This document shows, one piece after another, positions 3,638 through 38,049 of a stretch of 64,000 nucleotides of DNA. Numbering within the stretch: position 1 is the stretch's first letter; every line of letters begins with the position of its first letter. A model generated the notes under the pieces. That model had not been told where the DNA came from. It ran no database searches and saw only the letters and a list, made by a program, of their open reading frames with translations. The translations under genes and the position numbers were made by a program. The stretch is taken from contig JBDTBU010000195.1 of the NCBI GenBank assembly GCA_039923935.1, positions 1,843 through 65,842 on the forward strand. Reading direction: 5' to 3'. The stretch comes from Ktedonobacteraceae bacterium. GTDB lineage: Bacteria > Chloroflexota > Ktedonobacteria > Ktedonobacterales > Ktedonobacteraceae.

Positions 3638-4036
3638 ATGAATCAGCAAAGCCAGCACGAGGAAAATGTCCGTGCGTACCATGGTGAAGGTGAGTATAGC
3701 GCTCCTGGACCAGGAGCGCAGGATGAGAGCTATGCTTATACGCCACAACTCTCTAGAAGCGACGTTGAAGAACGCTTTCAGCCACATGAAGAGTGGAGAC
3801 AAAAAGCCAGCATGGCCCAGCCAGATTTCAGGCAGTCGCTCTCCGCTGGCCAGCGACTAGCCATGGCTATCGTTTCGGTTTCAATACTAGTACCCTTGGT
3901 AGCGATTCTGATTACTGCTGATGTTTCCAGTGAGAATGCTGGCAACCCGCTGCTCATTGGAAGTCGCTTGATAGCGCTGCTCCTGGTCTGCCTGACAATT
4001 ATGGTTGTGAATCTGGCCTTTAACAGGCGTCGTTGA
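3638..4036 (+). CDS. Hypothetical small membrane protein (polar N-terminus, two C-terminal hydrophobic helices)
   Basis: 132-aa ORF 35 nt after the NRPS stop, preceded by aaagaggaacgagacgaATG. Hydrophobic stretches LAMAIVSVSILVPLVAILI and LIALLLVCLTIMVVNL. No recognisable family. Confidence 0.4.
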   Translation: MNQQSQHEENVRAYHGEGEYSAPGPGAQDESYAYTPQLSRSDVEERFQPHEEWRQKASMAQPDFRQSLSAGQRLAMAIVSVSILVPLVAILITADVSSENAGNPLLIGSRLIALLLVCLTIMVVNLAFNRRR

Positions 4037-5023: not shown

Positions 5024-5815
5024 CTATAAACTGGCCCCCAAAGGGACATCAGCAGTCTTTGTCACTAGGGCTTGGGAGATGATTTGTAAGACGGCTGCTT
5101 GTGCTGGTCGAATAAAGAGATGGTTACCAAGCAACATATGAGTGGCGAAGTCCTGGCTGGTCTGTTTACGCCACGTTTCAAGCTTCGCCTGTTGTACACG
5201 TTTATCCTGCTGACCACCTAGCACAGTAATAGGGCAAGCAAGCGGCTCCTGAGCATGAAATTGATAGGATTCACAGACTGCGAAATCGGCACGTAGGATA
5301 GGTAACAAGAGTTGTCGCAGTTCTTCGTTTGCCAGAATCTCCGGGCTAGTCCCATCTAGTTCGAGCAACGTCTTCATCAGTGCGGAATCAGAGAGCGCAG
5401 ACTCAGGAAGTGCCTGACGCGGCTCATCAGAAGGTGTCTCAGGGGAGCGGTAGGCCGAGAGAAACAGGTGTTCAGGCAAACGAGCCCCTTGCTGGCGCAG
5501 TTGGCGCGTGAGTTCAAAACTGACGAGGGCACCCATGCTGTGGCCAAAGAAGGCATAAGGCATGTCGAAGTAGGGTTGGAGAGCCTGTGCCAACGCTTGA
5601 ATCAGTCCATCAAGACGTCGCAAGGGTGGCTCCTTGACCCGATTCTCGCGTCCCGGAAACTGCACTGGATAGACATCAATCTCTGGTGCAAGGAGGCTAA
5701 TCCAGGGGTAGTACGTAGAAGCACCACCCCCTGCGAAAGGAAAACAGAACAGGCGTACGCGGGCGGCTGGATTGGGCCTGGCACCGAAGATCCAGTTCTT
5801 TGTAGGAGGGATCAT
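5024..5815 (-). CDS. Type II thioesterase (alpha/beta hydrolase, NRPS/PKS editing type)
   Basis: LFCFPFAGGGAS N-terminal motif, GHSMGALVSFE nucleophile elbow (GxSxG), C-terminal GNHLF His motif. Start placed at ATG 5815 (AAGGAAAG upstream). Alternative starts 5836 and 5854 overlap the upstream permease stop. Confidence 0.85.
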   Translation of the reverse strand: MIPPTKNWIFGARPNPAARVRLFCFPFAGGGASTYYPWISLLAPEIDVYPVQFPGRENRVKEPPLRRLDGLIQALAQALQPYFDMPYAFFGHSMGALVSFELTRQLRQQGARLPEHLFLSAYRSPETPSDEPRQALPESALSDSALMKTLLELDGTSPEILANEELRQLLLPILRADFAVCESYQFHAQEPLACPITVLGGQQDKRVQQAKLETWRKQTSQDFATHMLLGNHLFIRPAQAAVLQIISQALVTKTADVPLGASL

Positions 5816-5828
5816 ACTATTGCTTTCC

Positions 5829-8183
5829 TTACTCATAACGCAGTGTCTGGGCAATCTTCACACGCGTTGCGGCGAAGACTGGGCCAATACATGCCAGCGA
5901 GGCCAGTACGAAGATGGCCACCAACATCCAGATCAGGTAGAAAGGATTGAAAGCGAAGGGCACTGGTGCCAAAAGTTTGGCCTGAATCTGCAAGAGACCC
6001 CAGGAAGCTGGGAAGCCCAAGATTAAAGCGAGCACCCAGGCCAGGCCACCGAGTGTGACCCCCTCGGCCCAGAAAACCTGTGCCACTTTTCTGCTCGCCG
6101 CGCCCATTGAGCGCAAAATGCCGATTTCACGCCGCTTTTCTAGAACACTCATCACCAGGGCATTGGCCAAACCAACCGAGCCAACCAGCGCGATAATAAT
6201 TGCCACAAGGTCGAGCAAGGTATAGATGGTCTGGTATTTGCTCTGGGCCTGTGCAATCTGGTTTTGTGCTGTGGTAATGTTTGCTAATAGCCCGGCATTG
6301 CTCATGGCTGCATCAACCCGATGGGCCAGAGCATCAATGTCTGCCTGTGTGGGAGCATGGATAGTCGATTGGATCATCACTTTCTGTGAATAGTCGCCAG
6401 GCATATTGAAGAGCGCATTAATCTGGGTAATTGGCGCGAGCAGGACACCAAAGTTGCCAGGACCGATATTGCTAAAGTCGCGGGCAACACCTATAATATG
6501 CCATTGGACTGTGTGCAGGCCAAGGGAAAAGGTAATGGTATCGCCGATTTTCAGCCCAGACTTATCTGCGGCATCCTGACTGATGATAACCGCGTTCTTG
6601 TCGTCATTGGTAAACCAGCGTCCAGCAGAGATGTCCCGCTGGTAGAGTTGGGTGTCGAGCTGCACTCCGGTGAGCGCGGCATCGCCCCAATGTGTTGTGG
6701 CCTTATCCTGACTGAAGCTCTCGATGCGTCCTACGCCTGGTACGGATGAGAGAACTTGCTGGAAGCGACTGAGCGGGATTGCGTCGTCTAGTGAGACCAT
6801 TGTATCAAAGTGATACACGGTGTAGACCTGGTTCAAGAAGGTGTTAAACGAATAGTTGGCTGTCTGCACTGCCAGAAACGCTGCGCCAGAAACCCCCAGG
6901 ATCAGCAGGGTCAGTCCCGTGCGCAAGCGTTTGCGAAAGACACCACGCGTGCCAAATTGGAAGGTCTGAGGCAACCACCCAAAAAGAGCACGTGCGATTG
7001 TGCTCCAACCACGATCCCCCTGGTTAGCAGTATTTTCCAAGCCGTAGCCGCTCAGGGCTTGCTTCACGGTTATACGTGTTCCCAAGTACACGGGTATCAG
7101 CGCAGCGAGCAAAGGTGTGCCGATGCCAACGATTGCCGCTTCAAGAATCTGCCAGGGCGCAACCTGGAGCGGCCCAATATCTAGAGAAACCAGCTTTCCC
7201 AAGTACTGGGCCAGCAAGTAGCCACCCGCAGTGCCTACTACGATACCAAGTGCAGTACCGATGATAGCATACACGCTGACCAGTGCGAGATAGTGACGCA
7301 TAATCTTGCCACGTCCGCCTCCAACGGCCTTCATGGTTCCAATGGCCTGAACCTGTTCTGTAATCAGAGCCATGATAGTACCTAAGAGCAAAATGACGCT
7401 TAGCAGGATAGCGATGACCGAAAGGACGTCCATAATCCCAAACAGACCATTGGCAATCTGGGAAACGCTATCGTCGCGTCCGACATTGGAGCCAAGAATG
7501 GGCGTCTTGTGCTGATCCATTACTTGCGAAAGCTGGGTCAGCGTTTGATAGCGTTGGTCATAGTTTTCGACACGTAGGGCGAAATTGGTCACGCCTGAAC
7601 GATTGAAAAACGTCTCAAAGGATGGTTCATTCATATACCCATAAGCACGGCCAGCCAGAGCGACCTGAGGAAGCCCCTGAGTGACCTCAAAGCCTGAGAT
7701 GGTCAGAGGCTTATAGGTGGTGCCTACTTGGATTGAGACGGTATCGCCGATATGGATATTCGTGAGTGTGTGATCACTTTCATCCAGGATGACCTGGCCT
7801 GGTCCAGGCAGGTGTCCTTCAACAAGCTTGAAACGCCCGATCTTCATCTGCTCGAAGTCGAGGATGCCCAGAACCTGGATTACTTTGTGATCCTGGCCGA
7901 TAGCCCAGCTTGTGACAATGCTACCCTGAGCCTGGACGCTTAACACATTGGGCTGCTGTTGAATGATAGCGGCCAAATTCGGTGAGGTTGGCGCAGTGTA
8001 GATCTGCATATCGGCTTGAGATGTGATGTTTGAGCTAAATTCCAGGCTGCTTTTGAACTGGCTTGAAGCAATGTTAATTGCTGATAGGCCAATAATCCCG
8101 ATGGCAATGCCGATCACTGTGAGAAGCGTGCGTGCTTTTCTATGTGAAATGTCCCGAAAAACTTTCTTTCGTAACGCGGTCAT
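5829..8183 (-). CDS. ABC transporter permease, MacB/FtsX type with two FtsX domains
   Basis: 784 aa. N-terminal RKARTLLTVIGIAIGI helix, large extracytoplasmic domains, and two C-terminal 3-TM FtsX-like blocks including EKRREIGILRSMGA. Directly downstream of a MacB-type ATPase. Confidence 0.85.
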   Translation of the reverse strand: MTALRKKVFRDISHRKARTLLTVIGIAIGIIGLSAINIASSQFKSSLEFSSNITSQADMQIYTAPTSPNLAAIIQQQPNVLSVQAQGSIVTSWAIGQDHKVIQVLGILDFEQMKIGRFKLVEGHLPGPGQVILDESDHTLTNIHIGDTVSIQVGTTYKPLTISGFEVTQGLPQVALAGRAYGYMNEPSFETFFNRSGVTNFALRVENYDQRYQTLTQLSQVMDQHKTPILGSNVGRDDSVSQIANGLFGIMDVLSVIAILLSVILLLGTIMALITEQVQAIGTMKAVGGGRGKIMRHYLALVSVYAIIGTALGIVVGTAGGYLLAQYLGKLVSLDIGPLQVAPWQILEAAIVGIGTPLLAALIPVYLGTRITVKQALSGYGLENTANQGDRGWSTIARALFGWLPQTFQFGTRGVFRKRLRTGLTLLILGVSGAAFLAVQTANYSFNTFLNQVYTVYHFDTMVSLDDAIPLSRFQQVLSSVPGVGRIESFSQDKATTHWGDAALTGVQLDTQLYQRDISAGRWFTNDDKNAVIISQDAADKSGLKIGDTITFSLGLHTVQWHIIGVARDFSNIGPGNFGVLLAPITQINALFNMPGDYSQKVMIQSTIHAPTQADIDALAHRVDAAMSNAGLLANITTAQNQIAQAQSKYQTIYTLLDLVAIIIALVGSVGLANALVMSVLEKRREIGILRSMGAASRKVAQVFWAEGVTLGGLAWVLALILGFPASWGLLQIQAKLLAPVPFAFNPFYLIWMLVAIFVLASLACIGPVFAATRVKIAQTLRYE

Positions 8184-34754: not shown

Positions 34755-35917
34755 TTGTCGGCCTGCAAGCGCTTGAGAAGGGCGGGACGGCGTAGGTGAG
34801 GTTGAACCCAGGTGCGCAAACGTTCTTGAAACTGCTGGGTTTCTTTAAAGTAATCGGCAGCGTCACGCAACTCAACCAAGACTTTCACGGCTTCTTCGTA
34901 GCCTGTGCCTGTACCGCGTGCCGCTGCGATCTCGGCTTGACGCCAATGCGTATCTTTGTGCTTGTGGATATCTTGTAGATGACTCTGCCGAGCTAGCCGC
35001 TCCTGTACACGCTGCTCGTACTCCTGTTTGACGTGTATGGCCTCGCTTTCGGCGTATAGCGTGGTATAGCTGACACGCTCGCCTAACGCTGGGGCTGCTT
35101 TCGTCTTGCCCTGACCCAACGCACGCAACTCTTGTACCAGCAGACGGCTCAGACCCGGCTCATTGCGAGCTAAGCGCAGCAAGTAATCGTTGCTGCGTTC
35201 TTGTGGCAATAGCTCAACCCAGGCCGCGAAATTATCGCTAGGTAAAGGCTTGCCTGTCTGGCTGTGGCGACCTGCCGCAGTGAGCAGTGCTTCTGGCACG
35301 AGCAATAACTCTGCTAGTTCCTGCTGTGCCTCTGTTAACGTGCTAAAAGCGTAAGGGACTGGTGGTACCCCTCTTAGCTCATTATCCTCACCGTCGTCTT
35401 CGCCATCCTCTTCTTCTTCATCATCCTCGTCGTCTTCTTCTTCGCTCCCATCCCATAGCATAGACTGACTGGACAGCCAGCCTATATACAGCGAACGCAG
35501 ATCCCCTGCCAGCAATTCATCGCGAATGGCAATGAACGAGCCAAGTTCACAATCCAGTATCTCGTCAGGCGGTTCCATCTCGCTTATCTGAAAATGGAGA
35601 ATATCATAATCTGCATGTTTGGTAAACGTGACAACGTCCTCGAAATCGTAGCCCTCGATGAGATCGGCTGGTAAGGCTCCATGCGGGAAGCGCAGTGCCA
35701 GTTGTGGCGAACCCCAATTGGCCCAATACAGGAAGCCATCGAAGTATTTATGCAGCACTTTGAGAGGATCGTGCTTAAAGTCACCCCAATGATATTCAAT
35801 CAGGGCGTGGGTAGACGATGCATGAATGTGACTGGAAAGGTCGTTGACCGCATCCAGTTGCGCCCGCGTCAGGGGCCGATCACAGGTCATAAATTCGTAA
35901 CGTTGATATTCGCTCAT
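34733..35917 (-). CDS. Conserved hypothetical protein with central poly-acidic tract
   Basis: 394 aa. N-terminal MSEYQRYEFMTCDRPLT... and an acidic run SEEEDDEDDEEEEDGEDDGEDNE. No catalytic motif recognised. Confidence 0.5.
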   Translation of the reverse strand: MSEYQRYEFMTCDRPLTRAQLDAVNDLSSHIHASSTHALIEYHWGDFKHDPLKVLHKYFDGFLYWANWGSPQLALRFPHGALPADLIEGYDFEDVVTFTKHADYDILHFQISEMEPPDEILDCELGSFIAIRDELLAGDLRSLYIGWLSSQSMLWDGSEEEDDEDDEEEEDGEDDGEDNELRGVPPVPYAFSTLTEAQQELAELLLVPEALLTAAGRHSQTGKPLPSDNFAAWVELLPQERSNDYLLRLARNEPGLSRLLVQELRALGQGKTKAAPALGERVSYTTLYAESEAIHVKQEYEQRVQERLARQSHLQDIHKHKDTHWRQAEIAAARGTGTGYEEAVKVLVELRDAADYFKETQQFQERLRTWVQPHLRRPALLKRLQADKLTWTEE

Positions 35918-36035
35918 GACTATGCTCCTCTATATGGCATCAATGATAGCATATCATAGCACATGAGCAAAAGGTGCGTGCATCTACTCTCCTTGACATC
36001 CTCCCCATGCCTAAAAGGGCAAGGGATTCCCACCC

Positions 36036-36149
36036 TCACGAATGGGTTTTCCTGTTTCGCTGAGGCTTGCCAGTTTGAGCTTTCGCCCTCCCTGGTCTGA
36101 CAGCCTCTCCACAGGCTTCAAATACCGCCAGCCCGGCGGCATGCACATT
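36036..36149 (-). CDS. tnpB: tnpB exon 2 (C-terminal 37 codons plus stop)
   Basis: Encodes NVHAAGLAVFEACGEAVRPGRAKAQTGKPQRNRKTHS*, the family-typical tail that normally follows ...DINAAKN. It is in frame with exon 1 once 36150-36804 is removed. Confidence 0.8.
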   Translation of the reverse strand, partial: NVHAAGLAVFEACGEAVRPGRAKAQTGKPQRNRKTHS

Positions 36150-36804
36150 GTAGAGTAGACGGCCAGCGAGGTTCTGTCTCCAGACCTTTTCTGTCCGTCC
36201 CTCCCCGAACCAGGGCTTGCTGCTTTCACAGCACCCGGCTCTCCAGTTCCAGCATCTGAACAAGTGAATACTGACTCGGACTTATGCATCTCGCGGCCTC
36301 ATCATTCTTTTGTGTTTGATGCCTTTCCCTGTTTCCCTTCCCCGTGTCTCAGGCGTTACCCTGAGCATTTGAGTACTCTGAAAACTCCGTCGTCATAGGC
36401 TCGCACCCTTAGACGATCCCGCATTTGCGCGTCTCAAACGTTCAGTGCGTTTAGGTGCCCATACACGTCCCCTTGAACCAGCTCATTGCTGGTCGTTCAT
36501 CGGAGAGAGCGTCACACACCCGCTAAGAAAAGGCATGTGTTCCGATGTCACCGCCACAGGTATGTTGCGGTGGGCCAACGCTTAGACCACTGGGGACTTG
36601 GGTTCAACCAATGCTGGCTTCACCTGTATCTGCGCACAGGACTTGCGGTGCATCACCATACATACCTTCTGGTTTAACCGCTTTCCCAACATGCTGCTTT
36701 CCTCTTTGAGTTTCCTCGCCAAGTAGGTTGGGCGTCCTTGAGGTCACTTGCTCTCGACCTCATCTCCCTACGGGAGAAATTTGATACGCGCCGAAACGGC
36801 GCAC
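36150..36804 (-). mobile_element. ORF-less group II intron (self-splicing ribozyme), 655 nt
   Basis: 5' GUGCGCC at 36804 downward. Domain V is GAGCCGGGUGCUGUGAAAGCAGCAAGCCCUGGUUC (36241-36207) with AGC triad, 2-nt bulge and GAAA loop. Domain VI is GAGGGACGG/CCGUCU-A-CUC with a bulged A at 36156, 7 nt from the 3' end ...CUCUAC (36150). No RT-like ORF inside. Confidence 0.85.
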
Positions 36805-37872
36805 CTTTGCGGCGTTGATATCTCGGTCATGGACAACGCCGCATTCGGGACAGGTCCACTGGCGGACCTCTAACGATAAGGAGTCGAGAATATGTCCACA
36901 ATGGGAACACCGTTTGGAAGAGGGATACCAGCGGTCAATCTTGACCACGTTCCTGCCGTACCATTTGGCTTTATATTCCAGTTGGGAGACAAACTCAGAC
37001 CAGCCAACATCAGAAATAGCTTTCGCAAGGGAGTGATTCTTGACCATGTTCTTGACTGCCAACGTCTCCACGCAGATCGTTTGGTTTTCACGGATCAGGC
37101 GAGTGGAGAGTTTGTGCAGGAAATCACGGCGGCGATCAGCTATCCTGGCATGGATACGCGCCACCTTCTTGGCGGCTTTGGCTCTATTCTTCGAGCCTTT
37201 CTTTTTCTTCGCGTGCCGACGTTGAGCATTGGCAAGCTTCTTCTCATCCTTGACGAAGAAGTGGGGATTGCCGACTTTCTCACCAGTGGAGAGGATCACG
37301 AAGTCTTTCAAGCCCAGATCAGCCCCAACGGTCTGCTCTACTGGCGTGAGATGGGGAATGTCCTGCTCCACCAGGATCGAGACAAAGTAGCGATCAGTAG
37401 CATCCTTAGAGACGGTCACAGTGCTAGGCTTGCTTCCTTTGGGCAAGGGACGCGACCAACGAATAGCAAGAGGCTCGGCCATTTTTGCGAGAGTAAGCGT
37501 GGCATTGTTCCACGTAAATGCAGAGGTGGTGTACTCAGCCGATTGCTGGTTGCGTTTCTTCTTAAACGTGGGGTACTTGGTTTTTCCATCAAAGAAGTTT
37601 CTGAATGCCTTGTCCAAATGCCTCAAGGCTTGTTGGGTAGGAACACAGGACACCTCATTGAGCCATCTATGCTCTGCATCCTGTTTCAGGAGTGTCAGTT
37701 GGGCAGAGGTGTCGCTATAGTAGAGGCGTTTCTTTTCTTGGTAGTAGGCATCGGTACGCAAGCGCAACGCCCAATTATAAATGTAACGAGCACAGCCAAA
37801 CGTCTGAGCAAGAATGTTCTTCTGCTCATCGGTTGGGTAAAACCTGTACTTCAATGCTCGTTTCTGTTCCAT
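36805..37872 (-). CDS. tnpB: tnpB exon 1 (RNA-guided endonuclease TnpB, IS200/IS605 OrfB family)
   Basis: ALKYRFYPTDEQKNILAQTFGCARYIYNWAL N-terminus. RuvC residues in GADLGLKDF, ICVETLAVKNM and HDRDINAA. Zn finger CSHCGH...CPECG. The unspliced reading ends in an atypical 14-aa tail, VRRFGAYQISPVGR (stop at 36760). Confidence 0.92.
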
Positions 37873-38049
37873 GTTTCACATCATAACAGGTATGGTGTGA
37901 AAAGTCAACAAGAAAGGAAAACGTGCTTCCTCCCCATATGTCAAAGCACAGGGGTATCCGCACGTCACATTCAGATGAGATACAATAAAGAGCAAGACTG
38001 ATGCGTATATCGTCATTTACAAAAACGCAGAGACAAGGAGGGTTTTCCT

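What the first reader, a model, noticed from the sequence alone, without database searches (positions are those of the whole stretch)
36036..37872. ORF-less group II intron splitting the 3' end of an IS200/IS605 tnpB gene
On the minus strand the tnpB ORF has RuvC residues in GADLGLKDF, CVETLAV and HDRDINAA, and a Zn finger CSHCGH..CPECG. It leaves the family-typical sequence right after ...DRDINAAK (codon 36807-36805) and stops 14 codons later. The next nucleotides are GUGCGCC, the GUGYG 5' consensus of group II introns. Near the other end lies a 35-nt hairpin, GAGCCGGGUGCUGUGAAAGCAGCAAGCCCUGGUUC (36241-36207). It has an AGC triad, a 2-nt bulge and a GAAA tetraloop, which is a textbook domain V. 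A domain VI helix follows (GAGGGACGG / CCGUCU-A-CUC) with a bulged A at 36156, 7 nt from ...CUCUAC (36150). Joining 36805 to 36149 keeps the frame. It yields ...DRDINAAK|NVHAAGLAVFEACGEAVRPGRAKAQTGKPQRNRKTHS*, the usual TnpB C-terminal tail, for 393 aa in total. The 655-nt insert has no RT/maturase ORF. I know of group I intron-IS605 chimeras (IStrons), but not of a group II intron inside tnpB.
Basis: partly seen in the sequence, partly recalled or inferred. Interest (0 to 1): 0.9.

Follow-up and report, generated by a model that had tools for sequence, protein, structure and literature searches.

The report
ORF-less group II intron in tnpB
A 655-base self-splicing-type (group II) intron without its own protein gene sits exactly inside the most conserved catalytic motif of a transposon nuclease gene (tnpB); it is real and belongs to a soil-bacterial intron lineage that specifically homes into that motif, but introns living inside insertion sequences are an already known habit.

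Summary
Window 36804..36150 (minus strand) is a complete, ORF-less group II intron. Removing it joins tnpB codon 356 to codon 357 and gives a 393-aa TnpB. That protein is colinear with uninterrupted homologues (77-87% identity), and one homologous locus is contiguous at the DNA level exactly at the insertion point.

Evidence for the intron:
- Rfam RF00029 hits domains V/VI at 52.7 bits.
- Domains I-II carry 40 compensatory base pairs.
- EBS1, EBS2 and delta pair with the flanking exons and covary with them across about 60 related copies.

I found 26 related copies in Ktedonobacter genomes and soil metagenomes. Nearly all lie after the same codon of ...D(R/A)DxNAAx|N... in divergent tnpB genes. 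Some carry a 597-aa RT-maturase-HNH protein whose closest solved relative is LtrA. Identical ORF-less copies sit in unrelated genes, so they are mobilised in trans.

ORF-less, trans-mobilised bacterial group II introns are published, including ones at a conserved site of an IS200-family element. So are group II introns inside IS605 elements.

The new parts are the RuvC-III homing site and the intron's position at the 5' edge of the putative omegaRNA. Splicing in vivo is untested.

The parts
35993..37973 (-). tnpB-only IS200/IS605-family insertion sequence. It is about 1981 bp with the intron and about 1326 bp without it. The right end (RE) is exact at 35993 (...GGAGGATGTCAA). The left end (LE) is approximate, just after a shared TCATC.
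   Evidence: I aligned the window with 7 independent homologous elements (L039-L043, L027, L001). Similarity stops abruptly after GGATGTCAA on the right. On the left it starts at about CATC|TGAATGTG. No tnpA-sized ORF lies between the LE and the neighbouring FAD-oxidase gene.
37880..37908 (-). Promoter-like site for tnpB inside the LE: TTGACT, 17-nt spacer, TG-TATGAT. It ends 8 nt before the ATG.
   Evidence: Consensus scan gives 10 of 12 matches. The TTGAC and TATnaT hexamers are conserved in the LE alignment of 6 elements. Function is inferred, not shown.
37932..37954 (-). LE subterminal hairpin (CCCCTGTGCTTTGACATATGGGG). It resembles the RE hairpin.
   Evidence: The hairpin is conserved, with compensatory differences, in L039, L040, L042 and L043.
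36805..37872 (-). tnpB exon 1, codons 1-356. It contains the HTH, RuvC-I (D185), RuvC-II (E269), the zinc finger and RuvC-III (D349-R-D351-I-N-A-A-K356).
   Evidence: Pfam hits PF12323, PF01385 and PF07282. The catalytic residues fall in invariant columns of alignment A1.
36811..36817 (-). IBS2 (CAACGCC, exon positions -13..-7). These are the Asn-Ala codons of the NAA motif.
   Evidence: It pairs 6 of 7 with EBS2. The pairing covaries across copies: GCGUUG/CAACGC, GCAUUG/CAAUGC, CCAUUG/CAAUGG.
36805..36810 (-). IBS1 (GCAAAG, exon positions -6..-1).
   Evidence: It pairs 5 of 6 with EBS1 CUUAGC, with one internal A.A mismatch. EBS1/IBS1 covary strongly across the family.
36150..36804 (-). ORF-less group II intron, 655 nt, running from 5' GUGCG to CUCUAC 3'.
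   Evidence: None of the 172 consensus base pairs of the ORF-less family alignment is broken in the window copy.
36420..36804 (-). Domain I (about intron nt 1-385).
   Evidence: Consensus fold of 8 copies over D1 plus D2 and the first pairs of D3 gives 119 pairs. Of the cells, 98% are paired. 40 pairs show changes on both sides, against 19.9 +/- 2.7 in shuffles (0 of 500 reach the observed value) and 2-8 in slid controls.
36576..36582 (-). EBS2 (AGCGUUG), in a hairpin loop of domain I.
36522..36529 (-). Delta (UU, 36529..36528) followed by EBS1 (CUUAGC, 36527..36522), in a terminal loop of domain I.
   Evidence: Delta pairs with exon positions +1/+2 (AA) and covaries with them across target classes (30 of 32 copies).
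36390..36416 (-). Domain II, a short hairpin (intron nt 389-415).
   Evidence: helices 21-22, which include compensatory changes.
36331..36385 (-). Domain III (intron nt 420-474).
   Evidence: Consensus fold of the ORF-less copies.
36242..36330 (-). Domain IV remnant (intron nt 475-563). This is where the 597-aa IEP ORF sits in the full-length relatives. It keeps the conserved CGCGAGAUGC (36295..36286), which corresponds to the IEP start region.
   Evidence: Alignment with L027/L001 and with 10 other ORF-less copies. A role as an IEP-binding site (DIVa-like) is inferred by analogy with IIA introns.
36207..36241 (-). Domain V: AGC triad, 2-nt bulge, GAAA loop. It has one extra bulged U compared with the 34-nt consensus.
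   Evidence: Rfam alignment.
36152..36204 (-). Domain VI, with the bulged branch-point candidate A at 36156.
36036..36149 (-). tnpB exon 2, codons 357-393 plus the stop codon. The first two nucleotides, AA, are delta'.
35993..36149 (-). Structured 3' region of the element, the putative omegaRNA scaffold. It consists of four conserved hairpins and ends at the RE. It begins at, or within about 10 nt of, the 3' splice site.
   Evidence: Consensus fold of 8 elements gives 48 pairs, 16 of them with compensatory changes. Calling it an omegaRNA is an inference from what is known of TnpB systems. No Rfam family matched.
35973..35992 (-). Flank immediately after the RE. If the element behaves like characterised TnpB systems, this is the guide portion of the omegaRNA.
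   Evidence: This sequence differs in every homologous element. The guide role is inferred only.

Best explanation
Window 36804..36150(-) is a non-autonomous (ORF-less) mobile group II intron of IIA architecture. It belongs to a lineage abundant in Ktedonobacteria.

The lineage retrohomes into the DNA that encodes the RuvC-III motif of TnpB nucleases (...D-R/A-D-x-N-A-A-x | N-I/V...). The intron RNA recognises the target by base pairing. EBS2 (AGCGUUG) pairs with the Asn-Ala codons. EBS1 pairs with the next six nucleotides. Delta (UU) pairs with the AA that starts the next Asn codon.

Full-length relatives carry a 597-aa RT/maturase/HNH protein in domain IV. The window copy is an internal-deletion derivative that keeps the ribozyme and the start region of the former ORF. 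To splice and to move it must rely on such a protein supplied in trans by a full-length copy elsewhere in the genome.

When transcribed from the tnpB promoter and spliced, the intron restores a full 393-aa TnpB. If it stays unspliced, translation ends 14 codons into the intron. The intron also rides passively with the insertion sequence.

Shown here: the anatomy, the exact boundaries, the pairings, the existence of IEP-bearing relatives, and recent mobility of ORF-less copies in related genomes.

Inferred: splicing in vivo, dependence on a trans-acting IEP, and presence of that IEP in this genome.
For: Rfam domain V/VI hit ends exactly at the junction.

The empty site exists in homologues at both protein and DNA level.

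The six-domain fold shows strong covariation. No consensus pair is broken in the window copy.

EBS1/IBS1 pair at a mean of 4.80 of 6, against 2.91 when exons are reassigned at random (maximum of 2000 shuffles, 3.42). EBS2/IBS2 pair at 5.39 of 7, against 2.95 (maximum 3.71).

Delta-delta' covaries as UU/AA, GG/CC, UA/UA, AG/CU and GA/UC.

I found 26 further copies of the tnpB-type lineage (8 in genomes, 18 in metagenomes), 27 with the window. All but two lie after the homologous codon of divergent tnpB genes. Host protein identity falls as low as 37%, while the introns are 70-87% identical.

Full-length copies with an RT + maturase + HNH ORF occur at the same site in K. robiniae (L027, L001) and in metagenomes (L063, L086, L118). 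That IEP matches LtrA over its full length, E = 4e-120.

L004 and L014 are 100% identical ORF-less introns, one in an IS240/IS6 DDE transposase gene and one in a tnpB gene of the same genome. L090 and L094 are 99.8% identical in different tnpB exons. ORF-less copies therefore moved after losing the ORF.

Experimental precedent for trans-mobilised ORF-less introns: PMC2882425.
Against: There are no transcript data, so splicing of this copy is unproven.

No IEP gene lies in the 64-kb window, and the rest of the genome is not available.

EBS1/IBS1 of the window copy has an internal A.A mismatch (5 of 6). EBS2/IBS2 has one terminal mismatch (6 of 7). Both could lower efficiency, although 5 of 6 is the commonest value in the lineage.

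Rfam's D1-D4 models give no hit.

The class assignment (IIA/ML) rests on delta-delta' and on the best solved-structure match of the relatives' IEP. No phylogeny was built.
Confidence: 0.88

Rival explanations
1. The intron is a stranded relic. It was inserted by retrohoming but can no longer splice in this genome, because there is no compatible IEP or because the exon pairings are mismatched. In that case this tnpB copy is effectively a pseudogene that makes a 370-aa C-terminally altered protein.
For: No IEP lies in the window. There is one EBS1/IBS1 mismatch and one EBS2/IBS2 mismatch. Bacterial group II introns generally need their maturase in vivo (established knowledge; PMC2882425).
Against: The ribozyme is fully intact, with 0 of 172 consensus pairs broken, which is the best of 11 ORF-less copies. 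Both exons are open and conserved, 87% identical to an uninterrupted homologue with all catalytic residues kept. Related genomes hold ORF-less and IEP-encoding copies side by side. K. racemifer is reported to have 34 RT-X-HNH genes (PMC3236041).
Confidence: 0.25
2. All tnpB-resident copies descend vertically from a single ancient insertion and diverged together with their host tnpB genes. They would not then result from repeated site-specific homing.
For: The insertion position is the same in all tnpB hosts.
Against: Introns are 70-87% identical at the nucleotide level, while host TnpBs are as low as 37% identical in protein. Most close TnpB homologues lack the intron. Identical or 99.8% identical introns sit in different genes, including a non-tnpB IS240/IS6 transposase at a look-alike site AATGCTGCCAAG|AAG. 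EBS1 differs between copies to match each exon.
Confidence: 0.03
3. The match is a chance resemblance or an unrelated insertion, for example a MITE, and not a group II intron.
For: Rfam D1-D4 models do not match.
Against: The RF00029 hit is above the gathering score. Covariation greatly exceeds the controls. The EBS/IBS/delta pairings hold. IEP-bearing relatives exist at the same site.
Confidence: 0.01

Closest known systems
ORF-less TeI3 group II introns of Thermosynechococcus elongatus, in particular family F4, which is inserted at a conserved site of the IS200-family element ISEL1 (Mohr et al. 2010, PMC2882425)
   Same: Both are bacterial ORF-less deletion derivatives of an IEP-encoding intron that keep remnants of the ORF ends in domain IV. 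Both have good EBS/IBS pairing with their exons. Both proliferate by retrohoming driven by IEPs of related introns. Both insert preferentially into other mobile elements, including an IS200/IS605-family element. Twintrons occur in both.
   Different: The intron lineage differs: the T. elongatus introns are IIB/chloroplast-like (my own knowledge), whereas here the architecture is IIA-type and the IEP is LtrA-like. The host phylum differs (Chloroflexota, Ktedonobacteria). Here the target is defined as the RuvC-III codons of tnpB and is used across many divergent tnpB families. I could not establish whether the ISEL1 site lies in tnpB. Several independent ORF deletions seem to have occurred here (three types of D4 remnant), not a single one.
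[quoted passage not shown] PCC 7107 (Kapitonov, Makarova and Koonin 2016, PMC4810608, their Fig. S9)
   Same: A group II intron lies inside an IS605-family element, and its IEP carries an HNH domain.
   Different: That report is a one-sentence mention of ORF-containing introns in cyanobacteria. The insertion position is not given in the text, and the supplement is not held. ORF-less copies, the homing-site logic and the relation to omegaRNA are not described there.
Ll.LtrB / LtrA (Lactococcus lactis, subgroup IIA, mitochondrial-like lineage)
   Same: The IEP of the full-length relatives aligns with LtrA over its whole length (E = 4e-120). Target recognition uses EBS2, EBS1 and a delta located immediately 5' of EBS1 that pairs with the first 3'-exon nucleotides.
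   Different: The window copy has no ORF. Its ribozyme is 655 nt, shorter than the Ll.LtrB delta-ORF ribozyme (about 0.9 kb, my own knowledge). Domain V is 35 nt with an extra bulged U. The natural home is tnpB, not a relaxase gene.
IStrons (group I intron fused to IS605/IS607-type elements, such as CdISt1; PMC4227781, PMC10690162)
   Same: A self-splicing-type intron is physically associated with a tnpB/omegaRNA-bearing insertion sequence. The ribozyme and the guide RNA lie next to each other on one transcript.
   Different: There the ribozyme is group I, sits at the 5' end of the element, and serves to splice the whole IS out of host transcripts. Here it is a group II retroelement that invaded the tnpB ORF itself and, if spliced, repairs tnpB and not the host gene. 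It is not a member of the IStron class.
RmInt1 in ISRm2011-2 (Sinorhizobium meliloti; PMC3035460, PMC4238363)
   Same: A bacterial group II intron whose natural homing site lies inside the transposase gene of an insertion sequence.
   Different: RmInt1 is IIB3/class D, its IEP lacks the endonuclease domain, and its host IS belongs to a different family.

Membership tests
Group II intron (ribozyme) | 5' end consensus GUGYG | tested here: met
   GUGCG lies at 36804..36800. It is invariant in all related copies.
Group II intron (ribozyme) | Domain V hairpin with AGC triad, 2-nt bulge and GNRA loop, followed by domain VI | tested here: met
   RF00029 scores 52.7 bits against a gathering score of 40, over the full model, at 36243..36150(-). 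Domain V is 35 nt, with one inserted U.
Group II intron (ribozyme) | Bulged branch-point adenosine in domain VI, 7-8 nt from the 3' splice site | tested here: met
   A36156 is unpaired in both the single-sequence and the consensus folds. It is the 7th nucleotide from the 3' end.
Group II intron (ribozyme) | Six-domain secondary structure supported by comparative data | tested here: met
   For D1-D2, 119 pairs were predicted and 40 show compensatory changes. The controls are far lower. D3-D6 come from the consensus of 11 ORF-less copies, 172 pairs in all and 50 with double changes. Tertiary contacts other than EBS/IBS/delta were not mapped.
Group II intron (ribozyme) | EBS1-IBS1 and EBS2-IBS2 pairing with the 5' exon | tested here: met
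   The window copy pairs 5 of 6 and 6 of 7. Family-wide covariation is well above shuffled controls.
Group II intron (ribozyme) | Precise removal restores a continuous host gene (an empty site exists) | tested here: met
   Protein alignment A1. DNA of L039 is contiguous at the site.
Group II intron (ribozyme) | Splicing through a lariat, in vivo or in vitro | not testable with these tools
   No transcript data are available.
Subgroup IIA / mitochondrial-like (ML) lineage | Delta lies immediately 5' of EBS1 and pairs with the first nucleotides of the 3' exon. This replaces the EBS3-IBS3 contact in the coordination loop. | tested here: met
   The two nucleotides 5' of EBS1 pair with +1/+2 in 30 of 32 copies. 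They covary across five target classes.
Subgroup IIA / mitochondrial-like (ML) lineage | IEP belongs to the ML clade | tested here: inconclusive
   The window copy has no IEP. The relatives' IEP matches LtrA best, over its full length (4e-120). Other solved group II RTs match only through the RT domain, at 1e-27 to 1e-34. No phylogeny against the reference classes was made.
Non-autonomous (ORF-less, trans-mobilised) group II introns | No RT/maturase ORF in domain IV | tested here: met
Non-autonomous (ORF-less, trans-mobilised) group II introns | Closely related IEP-encoding introns exist that could act in trans | tested here: inconclusive
   They are present in related genomes and metagenomes (L027, L001, L063, L086, L118). 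Whether one is present in the window's own genome cannot be tested, because only 64 kb is available and it holds no IEP.
Non-autonomous (ORF-less, trans-mobilised) group II introns | Evidence that copies moved after losing the ORF | tested here: met
   L004 and L014 are 100% identical and sit in different genes. L090 and L094 are 99.8% identical and sit in different exons. Several ORF-less copies in unrelated tnpB genes share the same deletion architecture.
IS200/IS605-family tnpB-only element (IS1341-like) | TnpB with HTH, RuvC and zinc-finger domains | tested here: met
   Pfam PF12323, PF01385 and PF07282 on the spliced product.
IS200/IS605-family tnpB-only element (IS1341-like) | Conserved ends with subterminal hairpins and a sharp loss of similarity at the ends | tested here: met
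   The RE ends ...GGATGTCAA at 35993. The LE lies near 37973, with a hairpin at 37954..37932.
IS200/IS605-family tnpB-only element (IS1341-like) | omegaRNA encoded at the 3' end and overlapping the end of tnpB | tested here: inconclusive
   A conserved structure with 16 compensatory pairs spans 36149..35993. No curated RNA family matched and no expression data are available.
IStron | Group I intron ribozyme at the 5' end of an IS605/IS607-type element | tested here: not met
   The only ribozyme hit is group II, and it lies inside the tnpB ORF.

The most novel reading that the evidence does not exclude
The tnpB-homing lineage may do more than use a safe haven. It may be functionally entangled with the RNA-guided system.

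The 3' splice site coincides, within about 10 nt, with the 5' edge of the conserved structured RNA that is probably the omegaRNA scaffold. Splicing, or 3'-splice-site hydrolysis, could therefore compete with omegaRNA maturation from the same transcript, or could define it. Splicing efficiency would then set the TnpB protein : guide ratio. This would be a group II counterpart of the intron/guide-RNA conflict described for group I IStrons.

A related point concerns HNH-carrying group II introns that repeatedly enter the RuvC-coding region. They would give a living example of the route proposed for the origin of the HNH insertion in IscB/Cas9 (PMC4810608).
Probability: 0.15. Interest if true: 0.75.

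Novelty: new member of a known kind. Interest (0 to 1): 0.45.

Why it matters
The element shows a hyperparasite strategy. A retroelement has tuned its RNA guide sequences (EBS2/EBS1/delta) to the codons of the one motif that no active TnpB can change: the RuvC-III Asp-x-Asn-Ala-Ala block. This gives it hundreds of pre-multiplied, non-essential landing sites that themselves transpose.

It also shows that short ORF-less derivatives, the intron equivalent of MITEs, outnumber the autonomous copies in the contigs recovered here.

For the TnpB/omegaRNA field there are two practical consequences. First, gene callers will report truncated '370-aa' TnpBs where the real product may be a spliced 393-aa protein. 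Second, the intron abuts the presumed guide-RNA scaffold, so intron and guide share one transcript.

For the group II field, the family offers a natural set of about 60 copies with diversified EBS/IBS/delta combinations.

None of this overturns current understanding.

Tried and rejected
- Rfam with permissive E-values over 35900..37000 gave no hit to any D1-D4 group II model, any omegaRNA-type family or any group I intron.
- A search of the window for a second domain V, or for other intron or tnpB copies, found none.
- tblastn with the related IEP against the window found nothing.
- An exact-sequence look-up of the truncated 370-aa ORF found nothing on record. It is a Ktedonobacteria relative: the best TnpB match is 87% identical, from GCA_041691195.1.
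- The supplement of PMC4810608 (Fig. S9) is not held. I could not check whether the cyanobacterial introns use the same site. The same applies to the ISEL1 site in PMC2882425.
- My first domain V regular expression was too strict for most metagenome loci. I replaced it with Rfam hits.
- An initial assumption that the intron was IIB was dropped after the LtrA match and the delta-delta' test.
- A predicted helix that pairs the IBS region with upstream exon sequence is not supported by compensatory changes, so I disregarded it.
- I did not run the large protein searches on the IEP, because the answer would not change the verdict.
Full report
**1. The observation**

On the minus strand, ORF 36760..37872 encodes 370 aa. 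The sequence is a typical TnpB up to ...CPECGVVHDRDINAAK and then runs 14 more codons to a stop. The next bases after codon 356 are GTGCGCC.

Rfam's Intron_gpII model (domains V and VI) hits 36243..36150(-) at 52.7 bits against a gathering score of 40, over the full model. The hit ends exactly at the proposed 3' splice site. It is the only RNA hit in the window apart from one tRNA. The 35-nt domain V is unique in the window.

Translation from 36149 gives NVHAAGLAVFEACGEAVRPGRAKAQTGKPQRNRKTHS*. The joined 393-aa protein carries the HTH_OrfB_IS605, OrfB_IS605 and Cas12f1-like_TNB domains.

**2. The empty site**

A protein search returned thousands of TnpBs. The best are 393 aa long, 77-87% identical and cover 100% of the joined protein; one is named as Ktedonobacteraceae. 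In the alignment the junction ...DRDINAAK|NVHAAG... lies inside a gap-free block with invariant D349, R350, D351, N353, A354, A355 and N357.

At the DNA level, the locus of the closest homologue (L039) aligns up to window 36805 and resumes at 36149 with adjacent coordinates 4068|4069. The insert is therefore 36804..36150, 655 nt.

**3. Related introns and their sites**

A scan of species-representative genomes with a degenerate domain V pattern gave 38 loci. Nine of them hold sequence 70-87% identical to the window intron, in Ktedonobacter robiniae, K. racemifer and two Ktedonobacterales MAGs. One of the nine, L008, holds only a 3' fragment.

The eight complete copies start GTGCGCCGTTT and end CT(CT/TC)AC. 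Seven of the eight lie after the fourth codon of N-A-A-x, or N-G-S-L in one case, in the RuvC-III motif of tnpB genes. Those genes are only 37-79% identical to the window's TnpB and are confirmed as TnpB by Pfam.

The eighth, L004, sits in an IS240/IS6-type DDE transposase gene at a look-alike site, AATGCTGCCAAG|AAG.

A metagenome scan with a 5'-end pattern returned 81 loci, all from soil-type projects. Eighteen carry the same EBS2 type. All but one of these lie at ...DRDxNAAx| sites of varied tnpB genes.

The other loci belong to sister lineages. These sit at other recurrent sites, at least one of them in a putative DDE transposase (...CTDGWxAY|; weak Pfam match).

**4. The ribozyme**

A consensus fold of eight copies over domain I, domain II and the first pairs of domain III predicts 119 pairs. 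Of the cells, 98% are paired. Forty pairs show changes on both sides, against 19.9 +/- 2.7 in shuffles (0 of 500 reach the observed value) and 2-8 when partners are slid by 1-3 columns.

A consensus of eleven ORF-less copies gives all six domains, with 172 pairs and 50 showing double changes. The window copy breaks none of them. Domain VI has the bulged A at 36156.

**5. Exon recognition**

Two loops of domain I pair with the 5' exon.
- EBS2 is AGCGUUG (36582..36576). It pairs with CAACGCC (36817..36811), the Asn-Ala codons.
- EBS1 is CUUAGC (36527..36522). It pairs with GCAAAG (36810..36805) at 5 of 6 positions.

Both loops covary with the exons. Examples are CUUGGC/GCCAAG, GAUUGC/GCAAUC, CAAACU/AGUUUG, CCAUUG/CAAUGG, and quite different pairs in the sister lineages.

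With fixed alignment columns and 59 non-redundant copies, EBS1/IBS1 pair at a mean of 4.80 of 6. When exons are reassigned at random the mean is 2.91, and the maximum of 2000 shuffles is 3.42. For EBS2/IBS2 the values are 5.39 of 7 against 2.95 (maximum 3.71). Within the tnpB lineage alone, EBS1/IBS1 pair at 5.29 against 3.75.

The two nucleotides 5' of EBS1 pair with exon positions +1/+2 in 30 of 32 copies. They covary as UU/AA, GG/CC, UA/UA, AG/CU and GA/UC. This is the IIA type of delta-delta' contact.

**6. The protein partner**

L027 and L001 (K. robiniae) carry a 597-aa ORF in domain IV with RVT_1, Intron_maturas2 and AI2M-like HNH domains. Among solved structures the best match is LtrA over the full length, E = 4e-120. 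Other group II RTs match only through the RT domain. NCBIfam's group II RT/maturase model scores 278.8 bits, just under its cut-off of 300.

Three metagenome copies at tnpB sites are also about 2.4 kb long. Neither the window intron nor the 64-kb window encodes such a protein.

The ORF-less copies keep the segment CGCGAGAUGC, which is the start of the IEP ORF in L027. By analogy with IIA introns, where DIVa around the start codon is the main IEP-binding site (as cited in PMC2882425), this may be what lets a trans-acting IEP recognise them. That is an inference.

**7. Mobility of ORF-less copies**

L004 and L014 are 100% identical over 648 nt but lie in two different genes of one genome. L090 and L094 are 99.8% identical in different tnpB exons.

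Counting copies whose 3' end could be placed, there are 11 ORF-less copies of 639-694 nt, plus two ORF-less outer introns that carry a nested intron. Against these there are 5 ORF-containing copies. Short contigs bias this count towards short copies. Three types of domain IV remnant suggest several independent deletions.

**8. The host element**

Similarity among eight independent elements ends sharply after ...GGAGGATGTCAA at window 35993 (the RE). On the left it begins near 37973 (the LE), next to a shared TCATC. A promoter-like TTGACT-17-TATGAT lies just upstream of the ATG.

The 157 nt from the 3' splice site to the RE fold into four conserved hairpins, with 48 pairs and 16 compensatory. 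This is where TnpB systems encode their omegaRNA (established knowledge; PMC8612924, PMC10055086). The intron therefore abuts the 5' edge of the presumed guide-RNA scaffold. No curated family confirms the omegaRNA.

**9. Comparison with the literature**

Searches for group II introns together with TnpB, IS605 or Ktedonobacter found two direct precedents.
- Kapitonov et al. [quoted passage not shown] PCC 7107.
- Mohr et al. [quoted passage not shown] They are mobilised by 'driver' IEPs of related introns and insert preferentially into other introns or insertion elements. This includes a family at a conserved site in the IS200-family element ISEL1, and twintrons.

The K. racemifer genome paper counts 34 RT-maturase-HNH genes. 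ORF-less bacterial group II introns are a standing category in the reference database.

I found no description of RuvC-III of tnpB as a homing site, or of the relation to omegaRNA. The library does not hold subscription-only papers or the Zimmerly database.

**10. Verdict**

It is a new member, with a newly defined homing site, of a well-known kind of element, and not a new kind.

Interest is moderate. The result is tidy and useful for the TnpB and group II fields, and it offers a testable speculative link to guide-RNA biogenesis. It would not surprise specialists in bacterial group II introns.

Noticed in passing
L016:3314-3964 (also L025, about 5323-6015): A twintron. In both K. racemifer copies, a second, different ORF-less group II intron of about 651 nt (GTGCGCCTTTG...CCCTAC) is inserted in domain III of the tnpB-homing intron, between ...GTAGTA and CTCAAA. 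In L016 it has its own RF00029 hit (3875-3964, 50.5 bits). In L025 only the insert position and its similarity to L016 were seen.
   Followed up: partly
L004:6548-7195: An ORF-less intron 100% identical to the tnpB-resident L014 copy sits in an IS240/IS6-family DDE transposase gene (..RRNKNAAK|KFFRKLLKGL..). The site mimics the tnpB target (AATGCTGCCAAG|AAG). This is an apparent ectopic retrohoming event.
   Followed up: yes
L044-L124 (metagenome loci): Sister lineages of the same intron family have other EBS1/EBS2/delta sets and sit at other recurrent sites. Examples are ...LLVCTDGWxAY| (a weak DDE_Tnp_IS240-like protein), ...QENAIRD-type sites, ...GATGCCATCCCGATTGTTGTG| and ...TGGTACGTCGTA|. 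Most host genes were not identified.
   Followed up: partly
L008:2-2346 and L088:6339-11697: L008 holds an IEP ORF of the same intron type, interrupted by about 1.37 kb of foreign sequence. L088 has two further domain V/VI hits downstream of one intron 5' end, which suggests nested or tandem introns.
   Followed up: no
window:32480-32606 and window:34628-34754: A direct repeat of about 127 nt, 94% identical, 2148 bp apart. It contains a long internal palindrome (CCACGCCCGAT...ATGCCGGGCGTGG) and overlaps the 3' ends of two ORFs. It may be a small repeated or mobile element.
   Followed up: partly
window:37945 (L125, Logan SRR26386615 contig): The only public contig found with the neighbouring FAD-oxidase gene ends 105 nt upstream of that gene, inside the LE of the insertion sequence. 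This is what one expects if the element is multi-copy in that genome.
   Followed up: no
window:36207-36241: Domain V is 35 nt long. It has an extra bulged U in the lower helix compared with the 34-nt consensus. The same shape occurs in otherwise unrelated introns of Solirubrobacterales, Alphaproteobacteria and other MAGs recovered by the pattern scan.
   Followed up: no
window:50380-50463: A tRNA gene (Rfam RF00005, 51.9 bits), unrelated to the finding.
   Followed up: no
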